DNA of 64,000 nucleotides from the NCBI GenBank assembly GCA_024743315.1, contig JANSWU010000004.1, positions 323,106 through 387,105 on the forward strand. Direction: 5' to 3'. This document shows, piece after piece, positions 53,986 to 63,781 of the stretch (position 1 is the first letter of the stretch; every line of letters begins with the position of its first letter). Origin of the DNA: Hyphomonadaceae bacterium. GTDB lineage: Bacteria; Pseudomonadota; Alphaproteobacteria; Caulobacterales; Hyphomonadaceae. The notes beneath the pieces are model-generated. The model saw only the letters and a list, made by a program, of their open reading frames with translations, did not search any database and was not told the origin of the DNA. Position numbers and translations under genes: made by a program.

Positions 53986-55812
53986 TCAGGCGTTCGCCGC
54001 TTTGGCCGCACGTTTGCGCTCATGCGGGTCGAGATGGACTTTGCGCAGGCGAATGCTCTCAGGCGTCACTTCGACCAATTCATCATCGGCGATGTAGGCC
54101 AATGACCGCTCCAGCGTCATTTGCAGTGGTGGGGTCAGGCGTACGGCTTCGTCTGAGCCGCTGGCGCGGACATTGGTCAACTTCTTGCCTTTCAGCACAT
54201 TCACTTCGAGATCATTGTCGCGCGTATGCTCGCCAATGATCATGCCTTGATAGACCTTATCGCCAGGATGGATCATCATCGGACCACGGTCCTCAAGGTT
54301 CCACAGCGCGAACGCAACCGCTTCGCCTTTGTCCATGGCGATTAAGGTGCCGGTTCGACGACCCTGAATCTTGCCTTTGTAAGGCGCGTATTCGAGGAAG
54401 ACGCGGTTCATGATCGCGGTGCCGCGCGTGTCGGACAAGAGCTCACCTTGATAGCCGATCAAGCCGCGGGTTGGGGCATGAAAGACCATGCGTGTGCGCC
54501 CGGCGCCGGATGGTTTCATCTCAACCATTTCGGCTTTGCGCTCGGACAGTTTCTGCACCACGGCGCCGGAAAACTCATCATCAACATCGATGACCACTTC
54601 TTCCATCGGCTCGAGCCGCTCGCCGCTTTCGCTTTCCTTATAGACCACTTGTGGGCGTGAGACGCCGAGCTCGAAGCCCTCGCGGCGCATGGTCTCGATC
54701 AGAACCGCGAGCTGTAATTCGCCGCGCCCGGAGACAACAAAGGCTTCCGCTTCCGCCGACCGTTCCACTTTCAACGCGACATTGCCTTCGGCTTCTTTCT
54801 GCAAGCGGTCCCAGATCACGCGGCTGGTGACCTTGTCGCCCTCGGTGCCGGCCAACGGACTGTCATTGACGCGGAACGTCATGGACAGGGTTGGCGGATC
54901 AATCGGCTGAGCCTCGATTGGCGTATCAACACTCGGGTCGACGAATGTGTCGGCCACGTTGGCCTTTTGCAGGCCCGAAATAGAAACAATGTCGCCGGCT
55001 TCGCCGACCTCGATCGGCTCGCGCTGCAAACCGCGAAAGGCGAGGACTTTGGAGACGCGCCCGGTTTCCACTAATGAGCCATCGCGCGCGAGGACTTTGA
55101 CCGTTTGGTTCGGCTTCACGGTGCCAGAGCTGACACGGCCGGTCAGGATGCGGCCGAGGAAATTGTCAGCGCCAATCGTCGTGGCGAGCATCCGGAACGG
55201 ACCCTCTTCAACCGTCGGCTCGGGCACGTGCTGCACGACGAGGTCGAACAGTTCGGACATGTCGGTGCGCTCATCCTCATACTGCGTCGACATCCAGCCA
55301 TTCTTGGCGGAGCCGTAGAGGATCGGGAAATCGAGCTGCTCGTCATCGGCGCCAAGCGCATCGAACAGGTCAAATACCTCGTCAATCACCTCGTCCGGGC
55401 GGCGTTCCGGCTTGTCGATCTTATTGACCGCCACGATCGGACGCAGACCGATTTTGAGCGCTTTAGAGACCACGAACTTGGTCTGCGGCATCGGCCCCTC
55501 AGCGGCATCAACCAGAACAATCGCACCATCGACCATGGACAGGATGCGCTCGACCTCACCCCCAAAGTCAGCATGCCCCGGCGTGTCGACAATATTGATC
55601 CGGGTGTCACCCCAGACGACGCTGGTCGTCTTGGCGAGAATGGTAATGCCCCGCTCTTTTTCGAGATCATTGGAATCCATCATCCGCTCAGACGTGGCTT
55701 CGTTCTCGCGGAACGTGCCGGACTGTTTCAGCAGGCAGTCGACCAGGGTCGTCTTGCCATGGTCCACGTGGGCAATGATCGCAATATTGCGAAGGGAGGT
55801 TGGCTCAGTCAT
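53986..55812 (-). CDS. typA: Translational GTPase TypA/BipA
   Basis: [53 protein letters not shown]. Confidence 0.98.
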
Positions 55813-55950: not shown

Positions 55951-56247
55951 ATGGCAAATGAGGTTTTCAAAGCACTCGGGCATCCGCTCCGTCGTCAGGT
56001 CATGGCTCTGCTGCGCCAGGGACCGATGAGTTCCGGCGAATTGGCCGACGCCTTTGACGCCGCCTGGCCGACCGTGACCCGGCACCTCAATGTCCTCAAA
56101 GACGCCGATCTGATCACGGCTGAGCGACAGGGCACATCGATCATCTACCGCACCAATACAAGTGTGGTGGAGGATGCGGTGAGCGCGCTGCTCGGCATGA
56201 TCGGTCGCGACAATGGTGATGATGACTTAAAGGAGGCCGCAGAATGA
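55951..56247 (+). CDS. ArsR/SdpR-family repressor
   Basis: FKALGHPLRRQVM, SGELADAF, TRHLNVLKDADLI, GTSIIY. Confidence 0.92.
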   Translation: MANEVFKALGHPLRRQVMALLRQGPMSSGELADAFDAAWPTVTRHLNVLKDADLITAERQGTSIIYRTNTSVVEDAVSALLGMIGRDNGDDDLKEAAE

Positions 56248-56945
56248 TCCGCGCCGGTATGATCGTATCAGGAATAGTGCTGACCCTGATGGCGGGGGTT
56301 TCAATCTGGGCGGGCGGGCAGCTTCCGGCTGACAACATTCCGGTGCACTGGAATGCGCAAGGCGTGGCCGATCGCTTCTCCGATCGCCAAGAGGCACTGT
56401 ACCTCTTATGGCTGATCCCGGGAATGGCGGCCTTGGGCGCCGTGGTCTTCGCCATATTACCGCAAATAGAGCCTTTGCAGGGCAATCTCTTCAAGAGCCG
56501 CAAAGCCTATAATGCCGTGTGGATTTCCACCATGATCCTGTTTCTCGGCATCCATGGTGGCATCGCCTACATGATGACTCGTGGTAGCGGCGCGGATGCG
56601 CAGAGCAATGAATTTGTCCGATTGGTCATTGCTGGCACCGGCATCCTGTTCATCGTGCTCGGAAATTACCTGCCGAAGACCCGTCAGAACTGGTTTCTCG
56701 GCATCCGGACACCCTGGACCCTGTCGAGCGAATATACGTGGGAGAAAACCCATCGGCTGGCGGGCCGGCTGTTTTTCGCGACCGGGTTCATCTGCTTGAT
56801 CGGTGCGTTTGTGCTGAACGGCATCGCGCTTGCCTTCATGGTCAGCGGTTTGGCGGTCAGTTCGGCCCTGTTTTGCGTCGGCTATTCATTCTTCATCTAT
56901 CGCAAAGCGCCCGACAAACGGGTCAGCCCGGACTATATCGTCTAG
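56244..56945 (+). CDS. SdpI-family membrane protein (DUF1648 + SdpI)
   Basis: IPVHWNAQGVADRF, GNYLPKTRQNWFLGIRTPWTLSSEYTWEKTHRLAG; ATGA overlap with the repressor. Confidence 0.92.
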   Translation: MIRAGMIVSGIVLTLMAGVSIWAGGQLPADNIPVHWNAQGVADRFSDRQEALYLLWLIPGMAALGAVVFAILPQIEPLQGNLFKSRKAYNAVWISTMILFLGIHGGIAYMMTRGSGADAQSNEFVRLVIAGTGILFIVLGNYLPKTRQNWFLGIRTPWTLSSEYTWEKTHRLAGRLFFATGFICLIGAFVLNGIALAFMVSGLAVSSALFCVGYSFFIYRKAPDKRVSPDYIV

Positions 56946-57517
56946 CGCGGTGTAATCGTCTCTTCGGCCTCGAAGATCACGGCTTTGGTTGCCTCGTTAT
57001 CAATAGACTCGACCGAAACTTTTGATTGTGCCCCTGTCGACGCTTGCGCCTTATTTATGTCGCCCACCTCAACCCGGATCGCGTAAATCGCCGGTCGGTC
57101 TGTCCAGCCATCCAGGTCCGGTTCCGCGAACACGCCAATATAGTGCACACCATCACGCTCACCTCGAAAATCAATTCGCCACGCGTGGGTGCTGCCGTCC
57201 GCCATATCCTTTCGAATGGACCGCTCAGCGCCAAAGACGGAGACTCCTGCATTGCCCTCGGCGCGGAGCGTCAGCGTGCCTGAAGGATACGCTTCATACA
57301 CGGTCAGATTGAGGCTTGCCGTTTCGCCTACCGCGATGGGCGGCACGATATCATGCTCAAACCGTACGGGCGTTCCGTGCAAGGACATGGATGAGCGTTG
57401 ATCCAGGTCCGGCGCTTTTGGGGGCGGCGCGTCCGTGACTGGACCCGGCATGCACGCGGTCAACAGAGCCAAACAGCAGGCGCTCACCCATCCCTGTCTA
57501 GTCGTCCTGCGATGCAT
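56942..57517 (-). CDS. Partner lipoprotein A (beta-rich, Ig-like?)
   Basis: Lipobox LTAC; paralog of 60225-60803 (YPSGTL, VFGA, WRIDF, DGVHYI, EVGD, AEET shared). Confidence 0.8.
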   Translation of the reverse strand: MHRRTTRQGWVSACCLALLTACMPGPVTDAPPPKAPDLDQRSSMSLHGTPVRFEHDIVPPIAVGETASLNLTVYEAYPSGTLTLRAEGNAGVSVFGAERSIRKDMADGSTHAWRIDFRGERDGVHYIGVFAEPDLDGWTDRPAIYAIRVEVGDINKAQASTGAQSKVSVESIDNEATKAVIFEAEETITPR

Positions 57518-57526
57518 GGGCGCCTC

Positions 57527-59977
57527 CTAATTGGCCACAACACTGAAATTGAAACAGATATCCCTGAGCTCGTCGCGCTCATTTTCCCAGTCGTGCAAGG
57601 TGATCGCATAAGTACCGGCTGACAGATTCCCGGACCAAGTTTCAACACCCTCAAAAGGGCTTTCAGCATCAACTATTGTTTGCCCCTTCAGAAAAATTCT
57701 GAAGTCCGGATCCACGTCTTCAACTGTCCGGTCGGGATCAGGGATTTCCGTCGCTGTGATCGTCAGGTCACTCGGCGTATCCACTGTGAGCATGACGAAT
57801 TCATGCACGCCGAGCCCGTTATATTCGTTGTATTGGCCAGTTGAGCAAAGGGTCAGATCCGGGTCCCCGACGGCCATTTCCTTGTAAACGGGATAGGGCG
57901 TGGCTTGATTATAGACCGCCGGAAATATGTCCGACAGTTCCCCATCATTGGTTTCCCCTTGTCCGAGCGGGCCAGTGCCAGAGATGTCTTCATCGGCGAG
58001 AATGGCATCGAGCGCCGCATCTAGTCCGGGATCCTTATTGGGATCAGCGCGCAATTGATGAATGAAGGAAAAAAGCGTGGTTAGTGTTTCTTGCTCAACA
58101 TAGTCAGGATGCGTCAGAGCTTCATAAAGCGGTGCATATCCAAGCGAGATTGTATCTGGCCCATCATCATTGTCGTCATAGAGATCAAAGACGATTTGCT
58201 GCACCGTGGCGGGACTGAACCAACCTTGTCGCCGGGATGCGCCTTCTGAGCCCGTACTGTCGGCATCGAGGTTCATGCCGAAGGCTTGGTTTTGTTTGCT
58301 CCCATAGGTGTCATCATATCGGTCACGCGACAGGAACACACCAGAAAACGCATTTGCGGTTCCTTCACTGAACGCCACACGAGGATCAAGCCGTCTGCGC
58401 GTGCCCCATGGGCCGCCCAAGCTATCATTGCGCGACAGAACATCCTGCAAAAAGTGGGTAAATTCGTGTGCGATCACCGAGTGATCATATTCTTCAGTAT
58501 CAATGTCTGCCGCGCCAGACAGGACGATGCGCCTTAGACCGGAATTGTAATAAGCTGGCCCACCAATTTCGCCATCCTCGAAATCGCCGTCCGTCGGCAC
58601 GTTGTTGGGGCTCCAGAACACGCGCAAATATGGGAATGAGACATCCGGATCGACGGATGCGGTCAAGGTCACGGCGTCATAGATAACATGCAGGATGGAA
58701 AACGGTCCGGCCGCGCGCGGCTCGGTATACTCCCCTTGCCCGCCATCCGCGTCCGGGTCCCATCCGGAGGGTGCGTTCAGGTCCCGCGTTGAGTCCGTTA
58801 CACCCGAATCCACAAGCCCCCCAGCCAGGATGTAGACTGCGTCCTGATTAGTATTGTCGAGCACATCAACATCCCAATTCGGCGGGCCGGTCTGTTTGAA
58901 TTGGCTGTAGACCCGGACCTGGACCTCGGTCTGGGACGGGACGGTAAAGCTGTAGGCACCAAACGCATCGGTGGCGCTTTCGGCGATCTGATTGCCCGCA
59001 CTGTCGACGATTTCGATCACCGCCCCGCGCACCGGCGATTGAAAGGTCGCGGCATAATCCAGGCCGGAATTATTCGATTTGAGCGGCACCATGTCGAAGG
59101 TGACCACGCCGTCAATGATCACTGTCGCCGGAGGTGGCGGTGGTGGAGGTGGTGGTGGTGGTGGCGGCGGAGGCGGTGGTGGCGGCGGCGGTGGCGGTGG
59201 CGGCGGTGGCGGCGGTGGCGGCGGCGGAGGCGGTGGTGGCGGCGGCGGAGGCGGTGGTGGCGGCGGTGGCGGTGGCGGTGGTGGCGCGACTGTGGGGTTT
59301 TCTGCCCCGGCCGTGTTCGAATTCAGACTCACAAACCAGGTACCGTCTGGCAGGCGCTGGAGAGAGCTTCCGAGCGGCGTTTGCGTGTTTTCATCCACGC
59401 CGACATCAATTGACATTGTGCCCTGCGCAGGACCATCGATCGCCTCGAACACGCCTTCATAAGACAGGAACTCAACGAGCACCCCTCCGCGTATCAAGGC
59501 AATCCCGTCCGGCCCGTTTTGCAGGCCCTCCTGAGACTGGTCGAAGACATAATAGTGATAATCACCGACGGTTGTCTGGGTCGCATCGGCGAAGTCTAGC
59601 GTGCGATATGAGGAGCCGGTCTCACCATCATAGAGCACCACGCTCAAGCTCGATACATCACCATCGGTCGACACCCTGATCTCGATAAACTCTCCCGAAT
59701 TGGCGACGACGACGCCAGGTGCCGAACTCTCATTGTCATAATGAAACTCACTGATCTGCACCGAGGATGGCGGAGGAGGCGGTGGTGGCGGCGGCGGCGG
59801 GGGCGGTGGTGGTGGTGGCGGAGGAGGAGGTGATGTTGTTGGCGGAGTCGGCGCGATCGTATTCGGGCCAGCGTCTGAGCCGCCGCCGCCGCCACATGCG
59901 GTCAAGGCTGCGCTGGCAATGATCAGGGCAAGGAGACTGACGCCGTTTTTGTGAAGTTGAAATGAGCGAATACGCAA
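57527..59977 (-). CDS. Lipoprotein zinc metalloprotease A with lamin-tail domain and poly-Pro linkers
   Basis: Lipobox LTAC-GGGGG, Pro21, LTD-like VQISEFHYDN...EFIEI...LQNGPDG...FLSYEG, Pro~52, beta-sandwich, HEFTH + FSEG, PPC-like C-terminus. Confidence 0.82.
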   Translation of the reverse strand: MRIRSFQLHKNGVSLLALIIASAALTACGGGGGSDAGPNTIAPTPPTTSPPPPPPPPPPPPPPPPPPPPPSSVQISEFHYDNESSAPGVVVANSGEFIEIRVSTDGDVSSLSVVLYDGETGSSYRTLDFADATQTTVGDYHYYVFDQSQEGLQNGPDGIALIRGGVLVEFLSYEGVFEAIDGPAQGTMSIDVGVDENTQTPLGSSLQRLPDGTWFVSLNSNTAGAENPTVAPPPPPPPPPPPPPPPPPPPPPPPPPPPPPPPPPPPPPPPPPPPPPPPPPPPPATVIIDGVVTFDMVPLKSNNSGLDYAATFQSPVRGAVIEIVDSAGNQIAESATDAFGAYSFTVPSQTEVQVRVYSQFKQTGPPNWDVDVLDNTNQDAVYILAGGLVDSGVTDSTRDLNAPSGWDPDADGGQGEYTEPRAAGPFSILHVIYDAVTLTASVDPDVSFPYLRVFWSPNNVPTDGDFEDGEIGGPAYYNSGLRRIVLSGAADIDTEEYDHSVIAHEFTHFLQDVLSRNDSLGGPWGTRRRLDPRVAFSEGTANAFSGVFLSRDRYDDTYGSKQNQAFGMNLDADSTGSEGASRRQGWFSPATVQQIVFDLYDDNDDGPDTISLGYAPLYEALTHPDYVEQETLTTLFSFIHQLRADPNKDPGLDAALDAILADEDISGTGPLGQGETNDGELSDIFPAVYNQATPYPVYKEMAVGDPDLTLCSTGQYNEYNGLGVHEFVMLTVDTPSDLTITATEIPDPDRTVEDVDPDFRIFLKGQTIVDAESPFEGVETWSGNLSAGTYAITLHDWENERDELRDICFNFSVVAN
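59129..59284 (-). repeat. (CCN)n proline-codon repeat, about 52 codons
   Basis: Counted from the coordinates: 156 nt of mixed CCG/CCA/CCT codons. Confidence 0.95.
59768..59830 (-). repeat. (CCN)n proline-codon repeat, 21 codons
   Basis: 63 nt of mixed Pro codons. Confidence 0.95.
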
Positions 59978-60135
59978 CGCGAGAACTCCCGAACGGTTCC
60001 GGACCTGAACGGGACTGCATTCAAGCTATTCTCAGATAGCGAAAGCGCGTTTCCCCCCCGCATCGAGAACAGTGTTCTGAATAGTCTGAGTTGGCAAGAT
60101 TGATATTTAAGAATTTTCAGTATTGAGACATCAGG

Positions 60136-60150
60136 GCAATTAATAATTGC
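60136..60150. promoter_or_regulatory. Palindromic operator candidate upstream of metalloprotease A
   Basis: GCAATTA-A-TAATTGC in an AT-rich intergenic stretch. Confidence 0.4.
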
Positions 60151-60224
60151 TCATTAACTGAACAGAGCGCTCGAGCGCGTGTTATTTTATAAGTATCGGC
60201 GCGACGGAAATGCGCTCGCCGGGA

Positions 60225-60803
60225 CTATTCAATCGTCTCTTCGGCGGGCAATAGGATCGCAGCCTCACCGGACAGCATCATCTGCATATCTTTTTCAGAT
60301 TTCAACTTGGCTTGCGCCGTCTGCCAATCGCCAACTTCAATCCTGACTGCATGTGCGCGCGTTTCACTCAACCCGCCTTTTGGTTCAGCGGTCGCCATGA
60401 TGTTGATATAATGCACGCCATCCGTTTCGCCCTGGAAGTCTATGCGCCATTCGTGTGTGGTCGCGTTGGACATATCCACGCGCATGGTTCGACTGGCCCC
60501 AAAGACTGCAAGCCCAGTCGCACCGGTTGCACTCAAAATCAGAGTCCCAGACGGGTATCCCTCATTTACCGTCACCACGACCGAACCGTTCTCGCCGATC
60601 TCGACCGGTTTCACAGTGGGCGTTGAAAATGTCACGGACGCACCGGGTTTCACCGTGGTGATCGGCGGCGCGAGTTTAACCGAGGTTTCTGTCCGTTCTG
60701 TCGCGAGTTCCAGGTCCGTCGCCGCGGATTGCGTGCAGGCAGACAGAGCGAGGCCCAAAGTCGTGGCGGCCGCGGCACCGAATAGGCTTATGCGATTAAA
60801 CAT
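60225..60803 (-). CDS. Partner lipoprotein B
   Basis: SD gaggagaag, lipobox LSAC, paralog of 56942-57517, ends LPAEETIE. Confidence 0.82.
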   Translation of the reverse strand: MFNRISLFGAAAATTLGLALSACTQSAATDLELATERTETSVKLAPPITTVKPGASVTFSTPTVKPVEIGENGSVVVTVNEGYPSGTLILSATGATGLAVFGASRTMRVDMSNATTHEWRIDFQGETDGVHYINIMATAEPKGGLSETRAHAVRIEVGDWQTAQAKLKSEKDMQMMLSGEAAILLPAEETIE

Positions 60804-60817
60804 GAACTTCTCCTCAC

Positions 60818-62554
60818 TCAGGTGACTGTGAAGCTGAAACAGCTGTCATCCTCAGGCGTCTCATCAAACTTATTGAAATCATAAAATTCGATCGCATAAG
60901 TCCCGGCATCAAGCGTCCCGGTCCAGATTTCGCTGCCATCAGCAGTGCTCTCAGCGCGTCGATCCTGACCGCGCGTATCGCGCGTGAACAATTGTCCTGT
61001 TTCCCAAATGCGAAAGTCCGGATCAGTCTCAGTTACACTGCTTAACGGGGCGGTTTCGGTCGCGGTCATCGTCACCGCGCCGGTGCTTGTCAGCGTCAGA
61101 CTGATATACTCGCGAACCCCATGCTTATTCGTGTCGCCATTATCGTCGGTTGAACAAACGATGACAGCCCCGCCGCCTTGAGTGACTGTTTTGTAGACGG
61201 GCAGAGACTGTGCCACGGCACCATTATTGGTCTCGCCAAGGCCGCGGGATCCGGTGCCGTTAATGTCTTCTGCGACCAACATTGCATCAAGCACGCTGGC
61301 GCTGACACTGCTCTCGTTCCGTATGCGATTTGCGAAGGCGAAGATCGTCGTAAAATCGACATTGGAGATATAAGCCGGGTCGGTGAACGCCGCATAAAGC
61401 GGTGCCAAACCGCCTGAGATCGTGTCGGCACCGTCATCAGCACTGTCATAAATATCGTAAAGGATCTGCTGGACCGAGGCTTCGTTGAACCAGCCCGGGT
61501 CACGCGTGCCGCTGCTGCCTGGCGTGAGGTCATCTTCGACACTGAACGCAAACCCGCCGGCTTGCTGTGCGTTCAAAGCATCGCGATAAATTGGGTCATC
61601 CAGGATCATCGCAGAAAACGCATTGCCCCAACCTTCGCCAAAGGCGAGGCGGGCATCTAGGCGATTGCTGAGGCTGTGCGATCCCCCTGGAGAATCTGAA
61701 CGTGACAGCTGATCTTCGAAGTAATGGCCAAACTCGTGCACAATAACATGGATATCATATTCATCGGTGTCATTGTTCTCGGCGCCGAGGATCCGAATCG
61801 TCGGCACGCCATTCGATCTGGTATAGGAAGATGTGCCAATCTCGCCATCTGCAACATTTCCATTCGTCGGCACATTATTGACGCTCCACAGCACTTGCAG
61901 AGCCGGAAAACTCACATCTGGATCAACCGCTGCAATGTCAGTCACTGTGTCGTAAATGGCATCCAGGATCGAGAATGGACCGGCGGCGCGCGTCCCAGTG
62001 TAGGACGCGCCGCCCCAACCCGATCCAGCATTTAAGTTGCGGGTGGAATTCGAAATCCCTGAACTCGTCAGGCTGCCATTCAGGACATAGATCGCGTTGC
62101 TACTGGTATTATCCAAGACTTGAATATCCCAGGTCGCGCCACTTGATTGTTGCAACTCGCTGCGAACGCGGATGCGCACATCTGTGTTTGAGTTCACATC
62201 GACATCATAATTACCATTGCCATCCGTGACGTCCGTATCAAGAACCGACCCGCTTGCATCGACGGCCTGGACCACGACACCGCGCGCAGGTTCCTGAGTG
62301 ATGGCATCATAGTTGAGCCCGCGGAAATTGTTATTATGCGGCACCTTATCAAACGTCACCTGGCCTGAAATCGTTACAGAGTTCGGTGGCGGCGGTGGCG
62401 GTGGAGGAGGCGGCGGCGAAACGCTTGTGCCGCCGCCTGGCGTGGTTGACCCACCGCCTCCGCCGCCACCGCAGGCTGCGATCAGTCCGACTGATAATAT
62501 GAGCGCCGCCATACCCACGGCGCGTTTGCGCCGCGTCGTTCCAGCTTTTACCAA
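60818..62554 (-). CDS. Lipoprotein zinc metalloprotease B with poly-Pro linker
   Basis: Lipobox IAAC-G7, Pro11 (62384-62416), beta-sandwich, HEFGH...GGSH...FGEGWGNAFS, PPC-like C-terminus. TTG start. Confidence 0.85.
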   Translation of the reverse strand: MVKAGTTRRKRAVGMAALILSVGLIAACGGGGGGGSTTPGGGTSVSPPPPPPPPPPPNSVTISGQVTFDKVPHNNNFRGLNYDAITQEPARGVVVQAVDASGSVLDTDVTDGNGNYDVDVNSNTDVRIRVRSELQQSSGATWDIQVLDNTSSNAIYVLNGSLTSSGISNSTRNLNAGSGWGGASYTGTRAAGPFSILDAIYDTVTDIAAVDPDVSFPALQVLWSVNNVPTNGNVADGEIGTSSYTRSNGVPTIRILGAENNDTDEYDIHVIVHEFGHYFEDQLSRSDSPGGSHSLSNRLDARLAFGEGWGNAFSAMILDDPIYRDALNAQQAGGFAFSVEDDLTPGSSGTRDPGWFNEASVQQILYDIYDSADDGADTISGGLAPLYAAFTDPAYISNVDFTTIFAFANRIRNESSVSASVLDAMLVAEDINGTGSRGLGETNNGAVAQSLPVYKTVTQGGGAVIVCSTDDNGDTNKHGVREYISLTLTSTGAVTMTATETAPLSSVTETDPDFRIWETGQLFTRDTRGQDRRAESTADGSEIWTGTLDAGTYAIEFYDFNKFDETPEDDSCFSFTVT

Positions 62555-62750
62555 CGTCCCAGTCTCCAGCTACTCACCTAAACCATAGCGGGAAAAAGAT
62601 TTCTCGACGACTAATGAGAGGTTAACGCAGTCTGATTCCCAATAATGGAATAAGCTGGATCATGGCGCTTGATCGGACAAGGCAAGACCTCAGCAGATGA
62701 CTAAAATTTGAAGAAGCGCGACGAACGCAGAACCGCTGGCCAGGCAAACA

Positions 62751-62780
62751 GAAGGCGCAGAGAAACTTCTCTGCGCCTTC
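62751..62780 (-). terminator. Strong hairpin downstream of the vWA gene
   Basis: gaaggcgcagagaa / ttctctgcgccttc perfect inverted repeat followed by tgttt on the minus strand. Confidence 0.7.
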
Positions 62781-62831
62781 CGCTCTCACCCGCATTGCGT
62801 CCCGTGCCCGCGGGGAAAAAGGGTACTCTAC

Positions 62832-63605
62832 TTAACGGTTGGAGCCTTTGCGGTCCTTGACGTCTTCTTCTTCCGCAACTGCGCGGTCTTCGGCGTCAAA
62901 TTCGATCTCGGCCGCTTCGCCTTTGCCATAATCGCGGGCCTTTCGGGCGAGGCGCTCCTGCGTGACGGCGAGGGATCCGGCGCTCACCGCCATTTGTTTA
63001 CTGGCGCTCACGCCGACCGCATCGGCATCCCCGAAGCTCGCGAATTCTGCGCCCAGGAAGACCACTTCCCACCCGCGGGCTTCTGCCCGATCTAGCGCGG
63101 CTTTTGCACCTTCGCGTGTCACTTCGCGGGATGAGTTCTCATGACCGTCGGTCATGATCACGATCACCGCTTTTTCAGGATTGTCTGCCTCGGCCATGGT
63201 GATGGTGCGATTGATCGCATCGAACAAAGGGGTCATGCCGCGCGGCGTCACTTCGTCATTGGTGACTTTGGTCCAGGCGTCCGGCTGCACTTGCTTGCGC
63301 AGCACGTCATATTGGAAGCCTTCCTGATGATCGAAGACGGCTAGAGTGACCGAAGTCTCAAGATCATCGGCTTCGCCGTCCTCGAGTTTGCCGACGGCCT
63401 CGGCATAGGCGTTCACAGAGCCAAGGGCTTCGTCCCATATGTCGGACATGGATCCGGTTCGGTCGAGGAGGATGTAGGATGAGACAGCTTTCATGATCGG
63501 AGTATCCGCAATCGGTTCAGGGGTAGGTTTGGTTTTCGCATGCGCGCCAAAGGCAACGGCGGTGGCGGCGATCACGCTGGCAATTGTCAGGCTGGTTCGT
63601 TTCAT
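62832..63605 (-). CDS. Exported vWA-domain protein
   Basis: Signal peptide, MIDAS DRTGS (DxSxS variant), GMTPLFDAI, MTDGHENSSRE, VFLGA. Confidence 0.88.
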   Translation of the reverse strand: MKRTSLTIASVIAATAVAFGAHAKTKPTPEPIADTPIMKAVSSYILLDRTGSMSDIWDEALGSVNAYAEAVGKLEDGEADDLETSVTLAVFDHQEGFQYDVLRKQVQPDAWTKVTNDEVTPRGMTPLFDAINRTITMAEADNPEKAVIVIMTDGHENSSREVTREGAKAALDRAEARGWEVVFLGAEFASFGDADAVGVSASKQMAVSAGSLAVTQERLARKARDYGKGEAAEIEFDAEDRAVAEEEDVKDRKGSNR

Positions 63606-63781
63606 GAGGTGCGTCTCCCATTCGCTTGTCGTGTGCGGAAGACTGTCAGGGTTAATCAAGGCACAGACCCGGCACCAAAAAAGGCATTTTGCCCTTATTT
63701 GTGTCGGCCTCGCCCATTTCTGGTCATCGGCCATTCAGGAAAGTCGCTTGTCGAATTCGGCGGCTGGTTTATCCGGAGGGT

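What the first reader, a model, noticed from the sequence alone, without database searches (positions are those of the whole stretch)
56942..62554. Tandemly duplicated module: tethered lipoprotein zinc metalloprotease plus dedicated partner lipoprotein
Seen: two consecutive protease-partner pairs on the minus strand with 9-14 bp gaps inside each pair. Both large proteins share lipobox-polyGly-polyPro, a beta-sandwich (FDxVP...RGxVxxxVD), AAGPFSIL, HEFxH with a downstream xAFxEG, and a PPC-like end. Both small proteins share YPSGTL, WRIDF, DGVHYI, EVGD and a C-terminal AEET. Known: HExxH plus a distal Glu is the gluzincin signature (M4/M36-like); those enzymes usually carry a propeptide, and protease-inhibitor gene pairs exist (AprA-AprI, protealysin-emfourin). 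Inference: I see no obvious propeptide, so the small lipoprotein may be a cognate inhibitor or trans-acting chaperone with its conserved C-terminal strand as the effector. I recognise no named family for this pair.
Basis: partly seen in the sequence, partly recalled or inferred. Interest (0 to 1): 0.75.

Follow-up and report, generated by a model that had tools for sequence, protein, structure and literature searches.

The report
Lipoprotein metalloprotease with dedicated tail-docking partner
Two neighbouring gene pairs each encode a membrane-tethered zinc protease of an undescribed family and a small partner protein; the partner is almost always encoded next to the protease and is predicted to clamp onto it with a conserved C-terminal tail, most likely to keep it in check.

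Summary
Four intact minus-strand ORFs form two protease-partner pairs (gaps 14 and 9 bp), and every quoted motif is present. The large proteins are lipoproteins with a Gly/Pro tether, a transthyretin-like beta-sandwich, an HExxH...GEGxxN gluzincin domain and a PPC-like end. No Pfam, NCBIfam or PDB family reaches threshold. A profile comparison links only the zinc-site helices to fungalysin M36 (95%), not M4 or M9.

The small proteins are stand-alone proteins of about 190 aa with an MG/Ig-like sandwich and a hallmark tail (phi-phi-phi-x-A-x-E-T-I). They form 865 clusters at 50% identity.

Pairing is near-obligate. 72 of 80 protease loci carry the partner immediately downstream. 31 of 31 evaluable partner loci carry the protease upstream. 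This holds across Alpha- and Gammaproteobacteria and a few other phyla, and no third gene is conserved.

AlphaFold of the natural in-frame read-through of pair B, with a paired alignment, gives pTM 0.90. The tail is ordered in that model (pLDDT 78-97) but is a low-confidence coil when the partner is folded alone.

Best reading: a cognate tail-inserting latency factor or inhibitor. The docking site and inhibition itself are inferred. I rate it a new variant of the known protease-inhibitor operon theme.

The parts
60818..62554 (-). Large A: 578-aa lipoprotein metalloprotease. Order of parts: lipobox IAAC, Gly7, Pro11 tether, transthyretin-like sandwich, HEFGH/GEGWGN catalytic domain, PPC-like C-terminal sandwich.
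61724..61738 (-). HEFGH zinc-binding and catalytic motif of large A (residues 273-277). The third ligand, Glu307, lies at 61634-61636 in LAFGEGWGN.
   Evidence: H273, E274, H277, E307 and N311 are invariant in 78 homologues.
60225..60803 (-). Small A: 192-aa lipoprotein partner (lipobox LSAC) with an MG/Ig-like beta-sandwich core. Its start lies 14 bp after the large A stop codon.
60228..60260 (-). C-terminal tail of small A, AILLPAEETIE. This is the family hallmark phi-phi-phi-x-A-x-E-T-I.
59978..60224 (-). AT-rich 247-bp spacer between pair A and pair B. It holds short palindromes. No terminator-like or sigma-70-like site was called inside it.
57527..59977 (-). Large B: 816-aa paralogue. Order of parts: lipobox LTAC, Gly5, Pro21, lamin-tail-like domain (weak match), Pro52, then the same sandwich, catalytic and PPC-like core as A. 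HEFTH lies at 58454-58468 and the third-ligand Glu at 58364-58366.
56942..57517 (-). Small B: 191-aa lipoprotein partner (lipobox LTAC). It starts 9 bp after the TAG stop of large B and lies in the same frame.
56945..57019 (-). C-terminal tail of small B (VSVESIDNEATKAVIFEAEETITPR). It forms three beta-strands with pLDDT 78-97 in the fused model and is a coil with pLDDT 51-73 when small B is folded alone.
62555..62831 (-). Upstream non-coding region of pair A, the presumed promoter region. It follows a hairpin after the upstream vWA gene.
   Evidence: read by eye. The scan gave no strong site.

Best explanation
Each pair is a self-contained two-gene module. The first gene encodes an outer-membrane-type lipoprotein zinc endopeptidase of an undescribed gluzincin family. 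Its zinc site is distantly fungalysin (M36)-like. It has no propeptide and hangs on a Gly/poly-Pro tether. The second gene is translationally coupled and encodes a Sec-exported partner of about 190 aa, usually also a lipoprotein, with an MG/Ig-like beta-sandwich. Its flexible C-terminal tail ends in a nearly invariant ...phi-phi-phi-x-A-x-E-T-I.

Proposed mechanism: the two proteins form a 1:1 complex in the cell envelope. The tail is disordered on its own. On binding it becomes a beta-strand on the protease, and one face of that strand (hydrophobic residue, Ala, Glu, Ile) lies in the active-site cleft. The invariant Glu then reaches the catalytic zinc or its water. This keeps the propeptide-less enzyme latent, protecting the cell's own envelope until the complex is separated or the partner is cleaved.

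Shown here: gene pairing, family conservation, the tail hallmark, a confident predicted complex, and tail ordering that depends on the protease. Inferred: the docking site, zinc contact, inhibition, and the cellular side on which it happens.
For: Pairing. 72 of 80 protease loci from species-representative genomes have the partner directly downstream on the same strand. These include Gammaproteobacteria, Campylobacterota, Desulfocapsa and Bdellovibrio-like MAGs. All 31 evaluable partner loci from metagenomes have the protease directly upstream. The window's own genome has exactly two of each, and they are these pairs. No third gene is conserved in the flanks. Large and small divergences track each other (r 0.84, Mantel p <= 0.001).

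Complex. AlphaFold2 was run on the natural TAG read-through fusion of pair B, with 37 truly paired rows plus unpaired rows. It gave mean pLDDT 88.9 and pTM 0.90, with only the 48-residue linker disordered. Tail residues 704-727 formed strands at pLDDT 78-97. The same tail in the partner folded alone is a coil at pLDDT 51-73, while the core stays above 90.

Tail. A-x-[ED] lies within the last 16 residues in 141 of 147 representatives at 50% identity. The Glu is kept in every full-length exception. The match always runs to the C-terminus.

Protease. HExxH, E and N are invariant in 78 homologues. The AF2 model places them on two helices. hhalign against M36 gives 95%. No propeptide domain is found.

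Precedent. Operon-encoded cognate inhibitors are known: potempins, which are lipoproteins (PMC9890683), and emfourin (PMC9505478).
Against: It may complete a beta-sandwich rather than enter the cleft.

A single-chain fusion prediction can favour compact arrangements.

Seven proteases of one Hellea-type subclade have no partner and no substitute tail, so the enzyme can exist without it.

Stoichiometric co-expression of a tight inhibitor requires an unknown release step.

The partner core resembles generic MG, Ig and PapD-like domains, not any known inhibitor fold.

There are no expression or biochemical data; no RNA runs were found.
Confidence: 0.5

Rival explanations
1. The partner is a non-inhibitory structural subunit or adaptor. 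Its tail completes a beta-sheet of the protease's N- or C-terminal sandwich by donor-strand-like complementation. Its MG/Ig-like body would position the enzyme, recruit substrate, or co-anchor it.
For: The tail forms beta-strands only in the complex. Foldseek hits to the partner core include PapD-like chaperones and MG domains, not inhibitors. A solo protease subclade exists.
Against: An invariant buried Glu next to a small Ala, on the hydrophobic face of the strand, is unusual for plain strand complementation. The five positions conserved in paired proteases but changed in solo ones all lie in the catalytic domain, not in the sandwiches; this is a weak signal. About 10% of partners lack the lipid anchor, so co-anchoring is not essential.
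Confidence: 0.2
2. The partner is a propeptide supplied in trans. It acts as a folding chaperone needed once for the propeptide-less protease to fold, and is then degraded or released.
For: M4 and M36 enzymes normally need an N-terminal propeptide as intramolecular chaperone and inhibitor (textbook knowledge). This family has none. The genes are tightly translationally coupled.
Against: The partner is itself usually lipid-anchored and strongly conserved as a folded domain, which suggests a lasting role. The solo subclade folds without it. This reading overlaps with the best explanation and cannot be separated from it in silico.
Confidence: 0.15
3. The partner is the dedicated substrate. The protease recognises and trims the conserved C-terminal tail to mature or release the small lipoprotein.
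For: The C-terminal motif is conserved at a fixed distance from the end, with 3-5 residues after the Glu. The tail is predicted to engage the protease.
Against: A 550-800-aa tethered enzyme with substrate-binding-like accessory domains seems excessive for one substrate. Solo proteases lack that substrate. Standard-mechanism inhibitors look the same in silico.
Confidence: 0.08
4. The two genes are merely neighbours in an operon and have no direct physical relationship.
For: No experiment shows binding.
Against: Adjacency is near-obligate in both directions across phyla. The proteins co-diverge. The complex is predicted with pTM 0.90.
Confidence: 0.03

Closest known systems
KLIKK-peptidase/potempin system of Tannerella forsythia (PMC9890683)
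   Same: Each secreted peptidase gene is adjacent to and co-transcribed with a small lipoprotein that specifically binds its genetically linked peptidase. There are several paralogous pairs per genome. The proposed purpose is to protect the cell's own outer membrane.
   Different: Potempins are OB-fold or eight-stranded beta-barrels of 98-132 residues. They are encoded upstream of the peptidase and insert loops into the cleft. Here the partner is an MG/Ig-like sandwich of about 190 aa, it is encoded downstream, and the predicted effector is a C-terminal tail. Here the protease itself is also a lipoprotein. There is no sequence or fold relation.
Protealysin-emfourin (M4in) operon of Serratia proteamaculans (PMC9505478 and its reference 13)
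   Same: A bicistronic operon with the gluzincin protease first and the cognate protein inhibitor second. The complex is 1:1 at the active site.
   Different: Protealysin is a true M4 enzyme with a propeptide and is intracellular. Emfourin is not a lipoprotein. No similarity to emfourin, nor to any Pfam or NCBIfam family, was detected.
Fungalysin family M36 (Pfam PF02128)
   Same: The HE[WF]GHY...GEGW[GS][DN] zinc-binding helix pair. hhalign gives 95% probability and E 2.5e-8 over 51 columns. Five of 78 members give weak PF02128 hits.
   Different: Similarity is confined to about 51 residues and falls below the Pfam threshold. The loop between the motifs is 7 residues longer. There is no FTP/PepSY propeptide. 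The architecture is different: lipobox, poly-Pro, transthyretin-like sandwich and PPC-like end. No metallopeptidase appears among the top 50 Foldseek hits of the model.
Serralysin inhibitors AprI/Inh and tail-inserting carboxypeptidase inhibitors (PCI, LCI); recalled from the literature, not tested here
   Same: A small periplasmic or secreted protein blocks a metallopeptidase by inserting a terminal segment into the active site. The aprA-aprI genes are linked.
   Different: AprI uses its N-terminus and an eight-stranded barrel. PCI and LCI target M14 exopeptidases. There is no sequence hit to either.

Membership tests
Gluzincin (clan MA(E)) metallopeptidase | HExxH on one helix plus a downstream Glu (E-x-x-x-[DN]) on a second helix as third zinc ligand | tested here: met
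   H273, E274, H277, E307 and N311 are invariant in 78 homologues. In the AF2 model, helices 216-231 and 249-266 of the fused numbering carry HEFTH and AFSEG. Codons were verified.
Gluzincin (clan MA(E)) metallopeptidase | Zinc binding and peptidase activity | not testable with these tools
   Needs biochemistry.
Peptidase family M36 (fungalysin) | Match to PF02128 above the gathering score (23.3 bits) | tested here: not met
   The window proteins give no PF02128 hit. Only 5 of 78 family members hit weakly, best E 0.0044.
Peptidase family M36 (fungalysin) | M36-type zinc-site motif HExGHY...GEGW | tested here: met
   hhalign probability is 95.2% and E 2.5e-8 against a bacterial M36 alignment, versus 1.0% for M9 and 1.4% for M4.
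Peptidase family M36 (fungalysin) | N-terminal FTP/PepSY-type propeptide | tested here: not met
   Pfam finds no such domain. The N-terminus is lipobox, Gly/Pro linker and a CarboxypepD_reg-like sandwich.
Bacterial lipoprotein | Signal peptide ending in a lipobox [LVI][ASTVI][GAS]C | tested here: met
   All four window proteins have one. So do essentially all complete large homologues and about 90% of partners. The remaining partners have a signal-peptidase-I type signal.
Potempins | OB-fold or eight-stranded up-and-down beta-barrel, 98-132 aa, encoded upstream of the peptidase | tested here: not met
   The partner core is an MG/Ig-like sandwich; best Foldseek hits are complement C4/C5 and bacterial alpha-2-macroglobulin MG domains. 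It is about 190 aa and encoded downstream.
Known inhibitor families in Pfam/NCBIfam (Inh/AprI, emfourin and others) | Significant profile match | tested here: not met
   Neither small protein gives a family match with E < 0.01. No PDB sequence or profile match was found.
PPC (bacterial pre-peptidase C-terminal) domain | Match to PF04151 | tested here: inconclusive
   7 of 78 members hit, best E 1.9e-4. The window proteins are below reporting. The model shows a C-terminal all-beta domain.

The most novel reading that the evidence does not exclude
The small proteins found a new family of protein inhibitors of metallopeptidases. [quoted passage not shown] The two-gene module is widespread in marine surface-associated Proteobacteria and has duplicated into fast-diverging, specificity-matched pairs.
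Probability: 0.35. Interest if true: 0.7.

Novelty: new variant of a known kind. Interest (0 to 1): 0.6.

Why it matters
Both proteins belong to sizeable families with no curated model and no literature that I could find. The protease family has at least 1,462 clusters at 90% identity. The partner family has 865 clusters at 50% identity.

If the partner is an inhibitor, it adds a new fold and a new mode (C-terminal tail, invariant Glu) to the short list of bacterial protein inhibitors of metallopeptidases. It would also explain how a propeptide-less, surface-tethered protease is kept from damaging its own envelope.

The family is concentrated in marine particle-, alga- and sponge-associated bacteria: Hyphomonadaceae, Maricaulaceae, Hellea, Algimonas, Kangiella and Cellvibrionaceae. 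It is therefore a candidate player in protein degradation at surfaces.

The rigid poly-Pro stalks (11 to 52 residues) make it a natural system for studying reach-limited, tethered proteolysis.

On the practical side, many database entries for the protease start after the poly-Pro run and so have lost the lipobox.

Tried and rejected
- **Block-diagonal alignments.** Alignments of the fusion with unpaired homologues (A1-A3) were misaligned by MAFFT. Signal peptides and the C-terminal sandwich were dragged onto the wrong protein. I discarded them. The problem was solved by collecting 36 loci in which the two genes are naturally in frame and using their read-through translations as paired rows.
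- **Foldseek on the fused model.** Searches against PDB and BFVD returned only beta-sandwich hits, so the catalytic domain could not be classified by fold.
- **PDB sequence and profile searches.** These gave only low-complexity noise.
- **Even sampling of 300 Alphaproteobacteria.** It found neither gene outside the window's own genome. This shows patchiness but gives no co-occurrence statistics.
- **Natural fusions.** None was found among the top 150 partner relatives or at the C-termini of the solo proteases.
- **Paired versus solo residue scan.** It gave only five positions, all in the catalytic domain. This is too weak and too confounded by lineage to locate the interface.
- **Literature.** A search for the family found nothing specific.
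- **Expression.** No RNA-seq runs hold the locus.
- **In-frame arrangement as programmed read-through.** I considered this and set it aside. 26 of 70 genome loci are in frame, about the one third expected by chance. The higher share in the metagenome set comes from close relatives.
Full report
**Observation**

The region holds four intact ORFs on the minus strand:
- large A, 60818-62554, 578 aa
- small A, 60225-60803, 192 aa
- large B, 57527-59977, 816 aa
- small B, 56942-57517, 191 aa

The gaps inside the pairs are 14 and 9 bp. Each contains an AGGAG(G) ribosome-binding site abutting the protease stop codon, which suggests translational coupling. A 247-bp AT-rich spacer separates the pairs. 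Large A and B are 45% identical over 540 residues (E 2e-143). Small A and B are 38% identical (E 4e-41). All four proteins start with a signal peptide that ends in a lipobox cysteine.

**Anatomy of the protease**

After the lipid-modified Cys come 5-7 Gly and a pure proline run: 11 in A; 21 and 52 in B, flanking a weakly lamin-tail-like insert.

Next comes a beta-sandwich that matches CarboxypepD_reg, bMG3 and SdrD_B below threshold, in 73 of 78 family members.

Then comes the catalytic domain. Last is an all-beta domain that matches PPC weakly in a few members.

In an alignment of 78 homologues, H273, E274, H277, E307 and N311 (numbering of large A) are invariant, among 41 invariant columns. 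This is the gluzincin signature HExxH...E-x-x-x-N. The second His and the Glu are 30 residues apart.

No Pfam or NCBIfam model reaches its cut-off on the catalytic part. Single-sequence and profile searches of all PDB sequences give only proline-rich noise.

To place the zinc site, I collected bacterial M36, M9 and M4 sequences from other genomes and ran hhalign against the catalytic columns of the family alignment:

| Family | Probability | E-value | Columns |
|---|---|---|---|
| M36 | 95.2% | 2.5e-8 | 51 (HE[FW]GHY...GEGW[GS][ND]) |
| M9 | 1.0% | 0.052 | 38 |
| M4 | 1.4% | 0.038 | 44 |

So the zinc site is fungalysin-like, but nothing beyond those two helices aligns. There is no FTP/PepSY propeptide. 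I treat this as a new family within the gluzincins, nearest to M36, and not as a member of M36.

**Anatomy of the partner**

The partner has a lipobox, a variable linker of 20-45 residues, and a well-conserved beta-sandwich (motifs KPGASV, EGYPxG, HxWR, DGV). After that come a short helix (GDWxxAQAK), a variable stretch and a tail.

The sandwich folds confidently on its own (pLDDT above 90 for residues 50-160). Its nearest structural neighbours are macroglobulin (MG) domains of complement C4 and C5 and of bacterial alpha-2-macroglobulins, followed by PapD-like domains. Typical values are rmsd of about 3 Å over about 107 residues and Foldseek E around 1e-5. This is a generic fold and not a known inhibitor scaffold.

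A profile search of 1.84 billion representative proteins finds 865 clusters at 50% identity with E <= 1e-3, and 349 with E <= 1e-10. All of the best 150 are stand-alone proteins of about 170-230 aa, apart from a few shorter fragments, and nearly all matches run to or within a few residues of the C-terminus. None is fused to a protease.

The tail is the hallmark of the family. Its consensus is G-E-x-phi-phi-phi-[ML]-x-A-x-E-T-I followed by 0-2 residues.
- A-x-[ED] occurs in the last 16 residues of 141 of 147 representatives.
- The five full-length exceptions still keep E-T-I.
- The motif also holds in about 100 partners read directly from loci. A Kangiella/Bdellovibrio-type variant reads IIQKA[DEG]SNN.

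If the tail is read as a beta-strand, the invariant Ala and Glu fall on the same face as the hydrophobic residues. The variable acidic residues face the other way.

**Is the pairing real?**

*Forward survey.* A scan of one genome per species returned at least 479 relatives of the protease. I examined the best 80 loci.
- 70 have a detectable partner immediately downstream on the same strand.
- L047 shows the start of a partner at the contig end.
- L061 has a divergent 169-aa signal-peptide protein in the same place.
- That makes 72 of 80.
- The hosts span Hyphomonadaceae, Maricaulaceae, Parvularculaceae, Hellea, Algimonas, Litorimonas, Robiginitomaculum and Sphingomonadales. Among Gammaproteobacteria they include Kangiella, Aliikangiella, Cellvibrionaceae, Endobugula and Pseudohongiellaceae. 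Single MAGs are labelled Campylobacterota, Desulfocapsa and Pseudobdellovibrionaceae.
- Seven loci from one Hellea-type subclade have unrelated genes downstream. These proteases have no tail-like extension. Their genomes also carry paired copies; for example L031 is paired while L048 and L051 are solo in one MAG.

*Reverse survey.* A metagenome scan with the partner as query returned 34 loci.
- All 31 with upstream sequence have the protease directly upstream.
- The other three begin at a contig end.

*Further checks.*
- The window's genome (99.9% complete) has exactly two of each gene, and they are these pairs.
- Neither gene was found in 300 other Alphaproteobacteria sampled evenly, so the module is patchy and clade-restricted.
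- Clustering all flanking ORFs shows no third gene conserved beyond close relatives.
- Pairwise divergences of the two proteins across 86 pairs correlate (r 0.84, Mantel p <= 0.001). The partner evolves faster, with mean distance 0.72 against 0.51. Such a correlation is expected for any linked genes, so it is consistent with co-evolution but does not prove it.

**Predicted complex**

The tools fold single chains only. Pair B, however, lies in one frame across its TAG stop codon. Reading TAG as a residue gives a natural fusion. It comprises the protease core (residues 284-816), four linker residues and the whole partner, whose signal peptide and linker act as a flexible connector of about 48 residues.

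Simple alignments that mixed unpaired homologues were corrupted by MAFFT. I therefore gathered 36 further loci where the two genes are in frame and used their read-through translations as truly paired rows. I then added unpaired homologues and checked that they sat in the right half.

AlphaFold2 gave mean pLDDT 88.9 and pTM 0.90. Only residues 538-585 were disordered. A pTM of 0.90 for a chain in which a fifth of the ordered residues belong to the partner implies a confident relative placement.

The last 25 residues of the partner form three strands (704-709, 712-720, 722-727). Their block pLDDT values are 78, 91 and 97.

When small B is folded alone with its own 66-row alignment, the core is unchanged. 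The same tail, however, is a coil with block pLDDT of 56, 51 and 71.

The tail is therefore predicted to be ordered only when the protease is present.

The limitation is that model coordinates are not exposed. I cannot say whether the tail lies in the active-site cleft or extends another sheet. A comparison of paired and solo proteases found only five discriminating positions. All are in the catalytic domain and none is in the flanking sandwiches. This is a weak, lineage-confounded hint towards the catalytic domain.

**Location**

Essentially all complete proteases carry a lipobox. About 90% of partners do as well, and about 10% have an ordinary signal-peptidase-I signal instead. The partner's lipid anchor is therefore dispensable. 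The meeting place must be reachable by a Sec-exported soluble protein, which means the periplasm, at least transiently.

Whether the mature protease ends up facing the periplasm or the outside cannot be decided from sequence. Taken as polyproline-II rods (about 0.31 nm per residue, textbook value), the proline runs of large B would span roughly 20 nm or more. That is easier to reconcile with an outward-projecting enzyme. This last point is inference.

**Mechanism and rivals**

I favour a cognate latency factor or inhibitor that docks by its tail, with confidence 0.5. Complex formation in itself I hold at about 0.8.

Reasons:
- adjacency that is near-obligate in both directions, with translational coupling;
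- a protease that lacks the propeptide its nearest relatives use for latency;
- a tail that folds on binding;
- a tail whose conserved face is hydrophobic with one invariant carboxylate beside a small residue, as expected for a strand that lies over a metal site.

Precedents exist. Potempins are outer-membrane lipoproteins encoded next to, and specific for, each KLIKK peptidase of Tannerella forsythia (PMC9890683). Emfourin is encoded downstream of protealysin in one operon (PMC9505478).

The rivals are:
- a non-inhibitory subunit or adaptor that completes a sheet (0.2);
- a propeptide-like foldase acting in trans (0.15, overlapping with the main reading);
- a dedicated substrate whose tail is trimmed (0.08);
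- mere neighbours (0.03).

All of these can be separated by a multimer model with coordinates and by simple binding and activity assays with tail-deletion and Glu mutants.

**The duplication**

The two pairs are not recent copies. Only the nearest relative (L001; its A protease is 82% identical) and partly L003 carry the second pair.

Between the window and L001, the A proteins are 82% (protease) and 68% (partner) identical. The positionally equivalent B proteins are only 48% and 37% identical. The B catalytic residues are intact.

Pair B therefore evolves several times faster, as a unit. This could reflect relaxed constraint or diversification of a matched pair. I did not test selection because synonymous sites would be saturated.

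**Novelty and score**

The theme, a protease with an operon-encoded cognate protein partner or inhibitor, is known. Several things appear to be new:
- the protease family;
- the partner family and its fold;
- the C-terminal-tail mode;
- both components being tethered lipoproteins;
- the breadth of the module in marine Proteobacteria.

I rate it a new variant of a known kind, with interest 0.6.

Noticed in passing
window 56942-59977 versus L001:6350-9323: Pair B evolves much faster than pair A. Between the window and its nearest relative, the A protease and partner are 82% and 68% identical. The positionally equivalent B proteins are only 48% and 37% identical, with intact catalytic residues.
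   Followed up: partly
window 57517-57532: Large B and small B lie in one reading frame, separated only by TAG plus three codons. The same in-frame arrangement occurs in 26 of 70 genome loci and 20 of 31 metagenome loci. I judged this close to chance plus shared ancestry. Programmed read-through was not excluded experimentally.
   Followed up: partly
L041, L045, L048, L051, L052, L059, L060: A Hellea-type subclade of the protease has lost the partner, or never had it. These proteases sit next to unrelated genes (Baeyer-Villiger-type monooxygenase, pyruvate carboxylase, DUF1800/DUF1501-like). The same genomes also keep paired copies.
   Followed up: partly
P0002, P0005-P0039 and similar database entries: Many public gene calls for the protease start just after the poly-Pro run (MTISGQ...). 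They have therefore lost the signal peptide, lipobox and tether. The family looks non-secreted in those annotations.
   Followed up: no
L007, L023, L040, L043, L055, L057, L075, L076, L104 and others: About a tenth of partners carry an ordinary AxA-type signal peptide instead of a lipobox. In those lineages the partner would be soluble in the periplasm.
   Followed up: partly
window 59129-59830: Runs of 52 and 21 prolines flank a weakly lamin-tail-like domain (PF00932, E 0.021) in large B. Long CCN repeats such as these are prone to assembly and length variation. I did not check this against reads.
   Followed up: no
window 55951-56945: An ArsR-family regulator (HTH_20/HTH_5) and an SdpI/DUF1648 membrane protein form a plus-strand pair. 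It ends convergently 4 bp inside the small B stop region. SdpI is syntenic with the module in about 30 close-relative loci only.
   Followed up: no
window 60140-60185: The spacer between the pairs holds a GC-rich palindrome (GCGCTCGAGCGC) followed by an AT-rich inverted repeat (TTAATGAGCAATTATTAATTG). These are possible regulator sites upstream of pair B.
   Followed up: no
window 62832-63734 and 62760-62800: Upstream on the same strand is a signal-peptide vWA-domain protein (PF00092, E 6.5e-5). It is followed by a terminator-like hairpin (GGCGCAGAGAAGTTTCTCTGCGCC), so pair A probably has its own promoter.
   Followed up: no
window 53986-55812 and L061:6150-8060: TypA/BipA lies near the module both in the window and in an unrelated gammaproteobacterial locus. 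This is probably coincidence.
   Followed up: no
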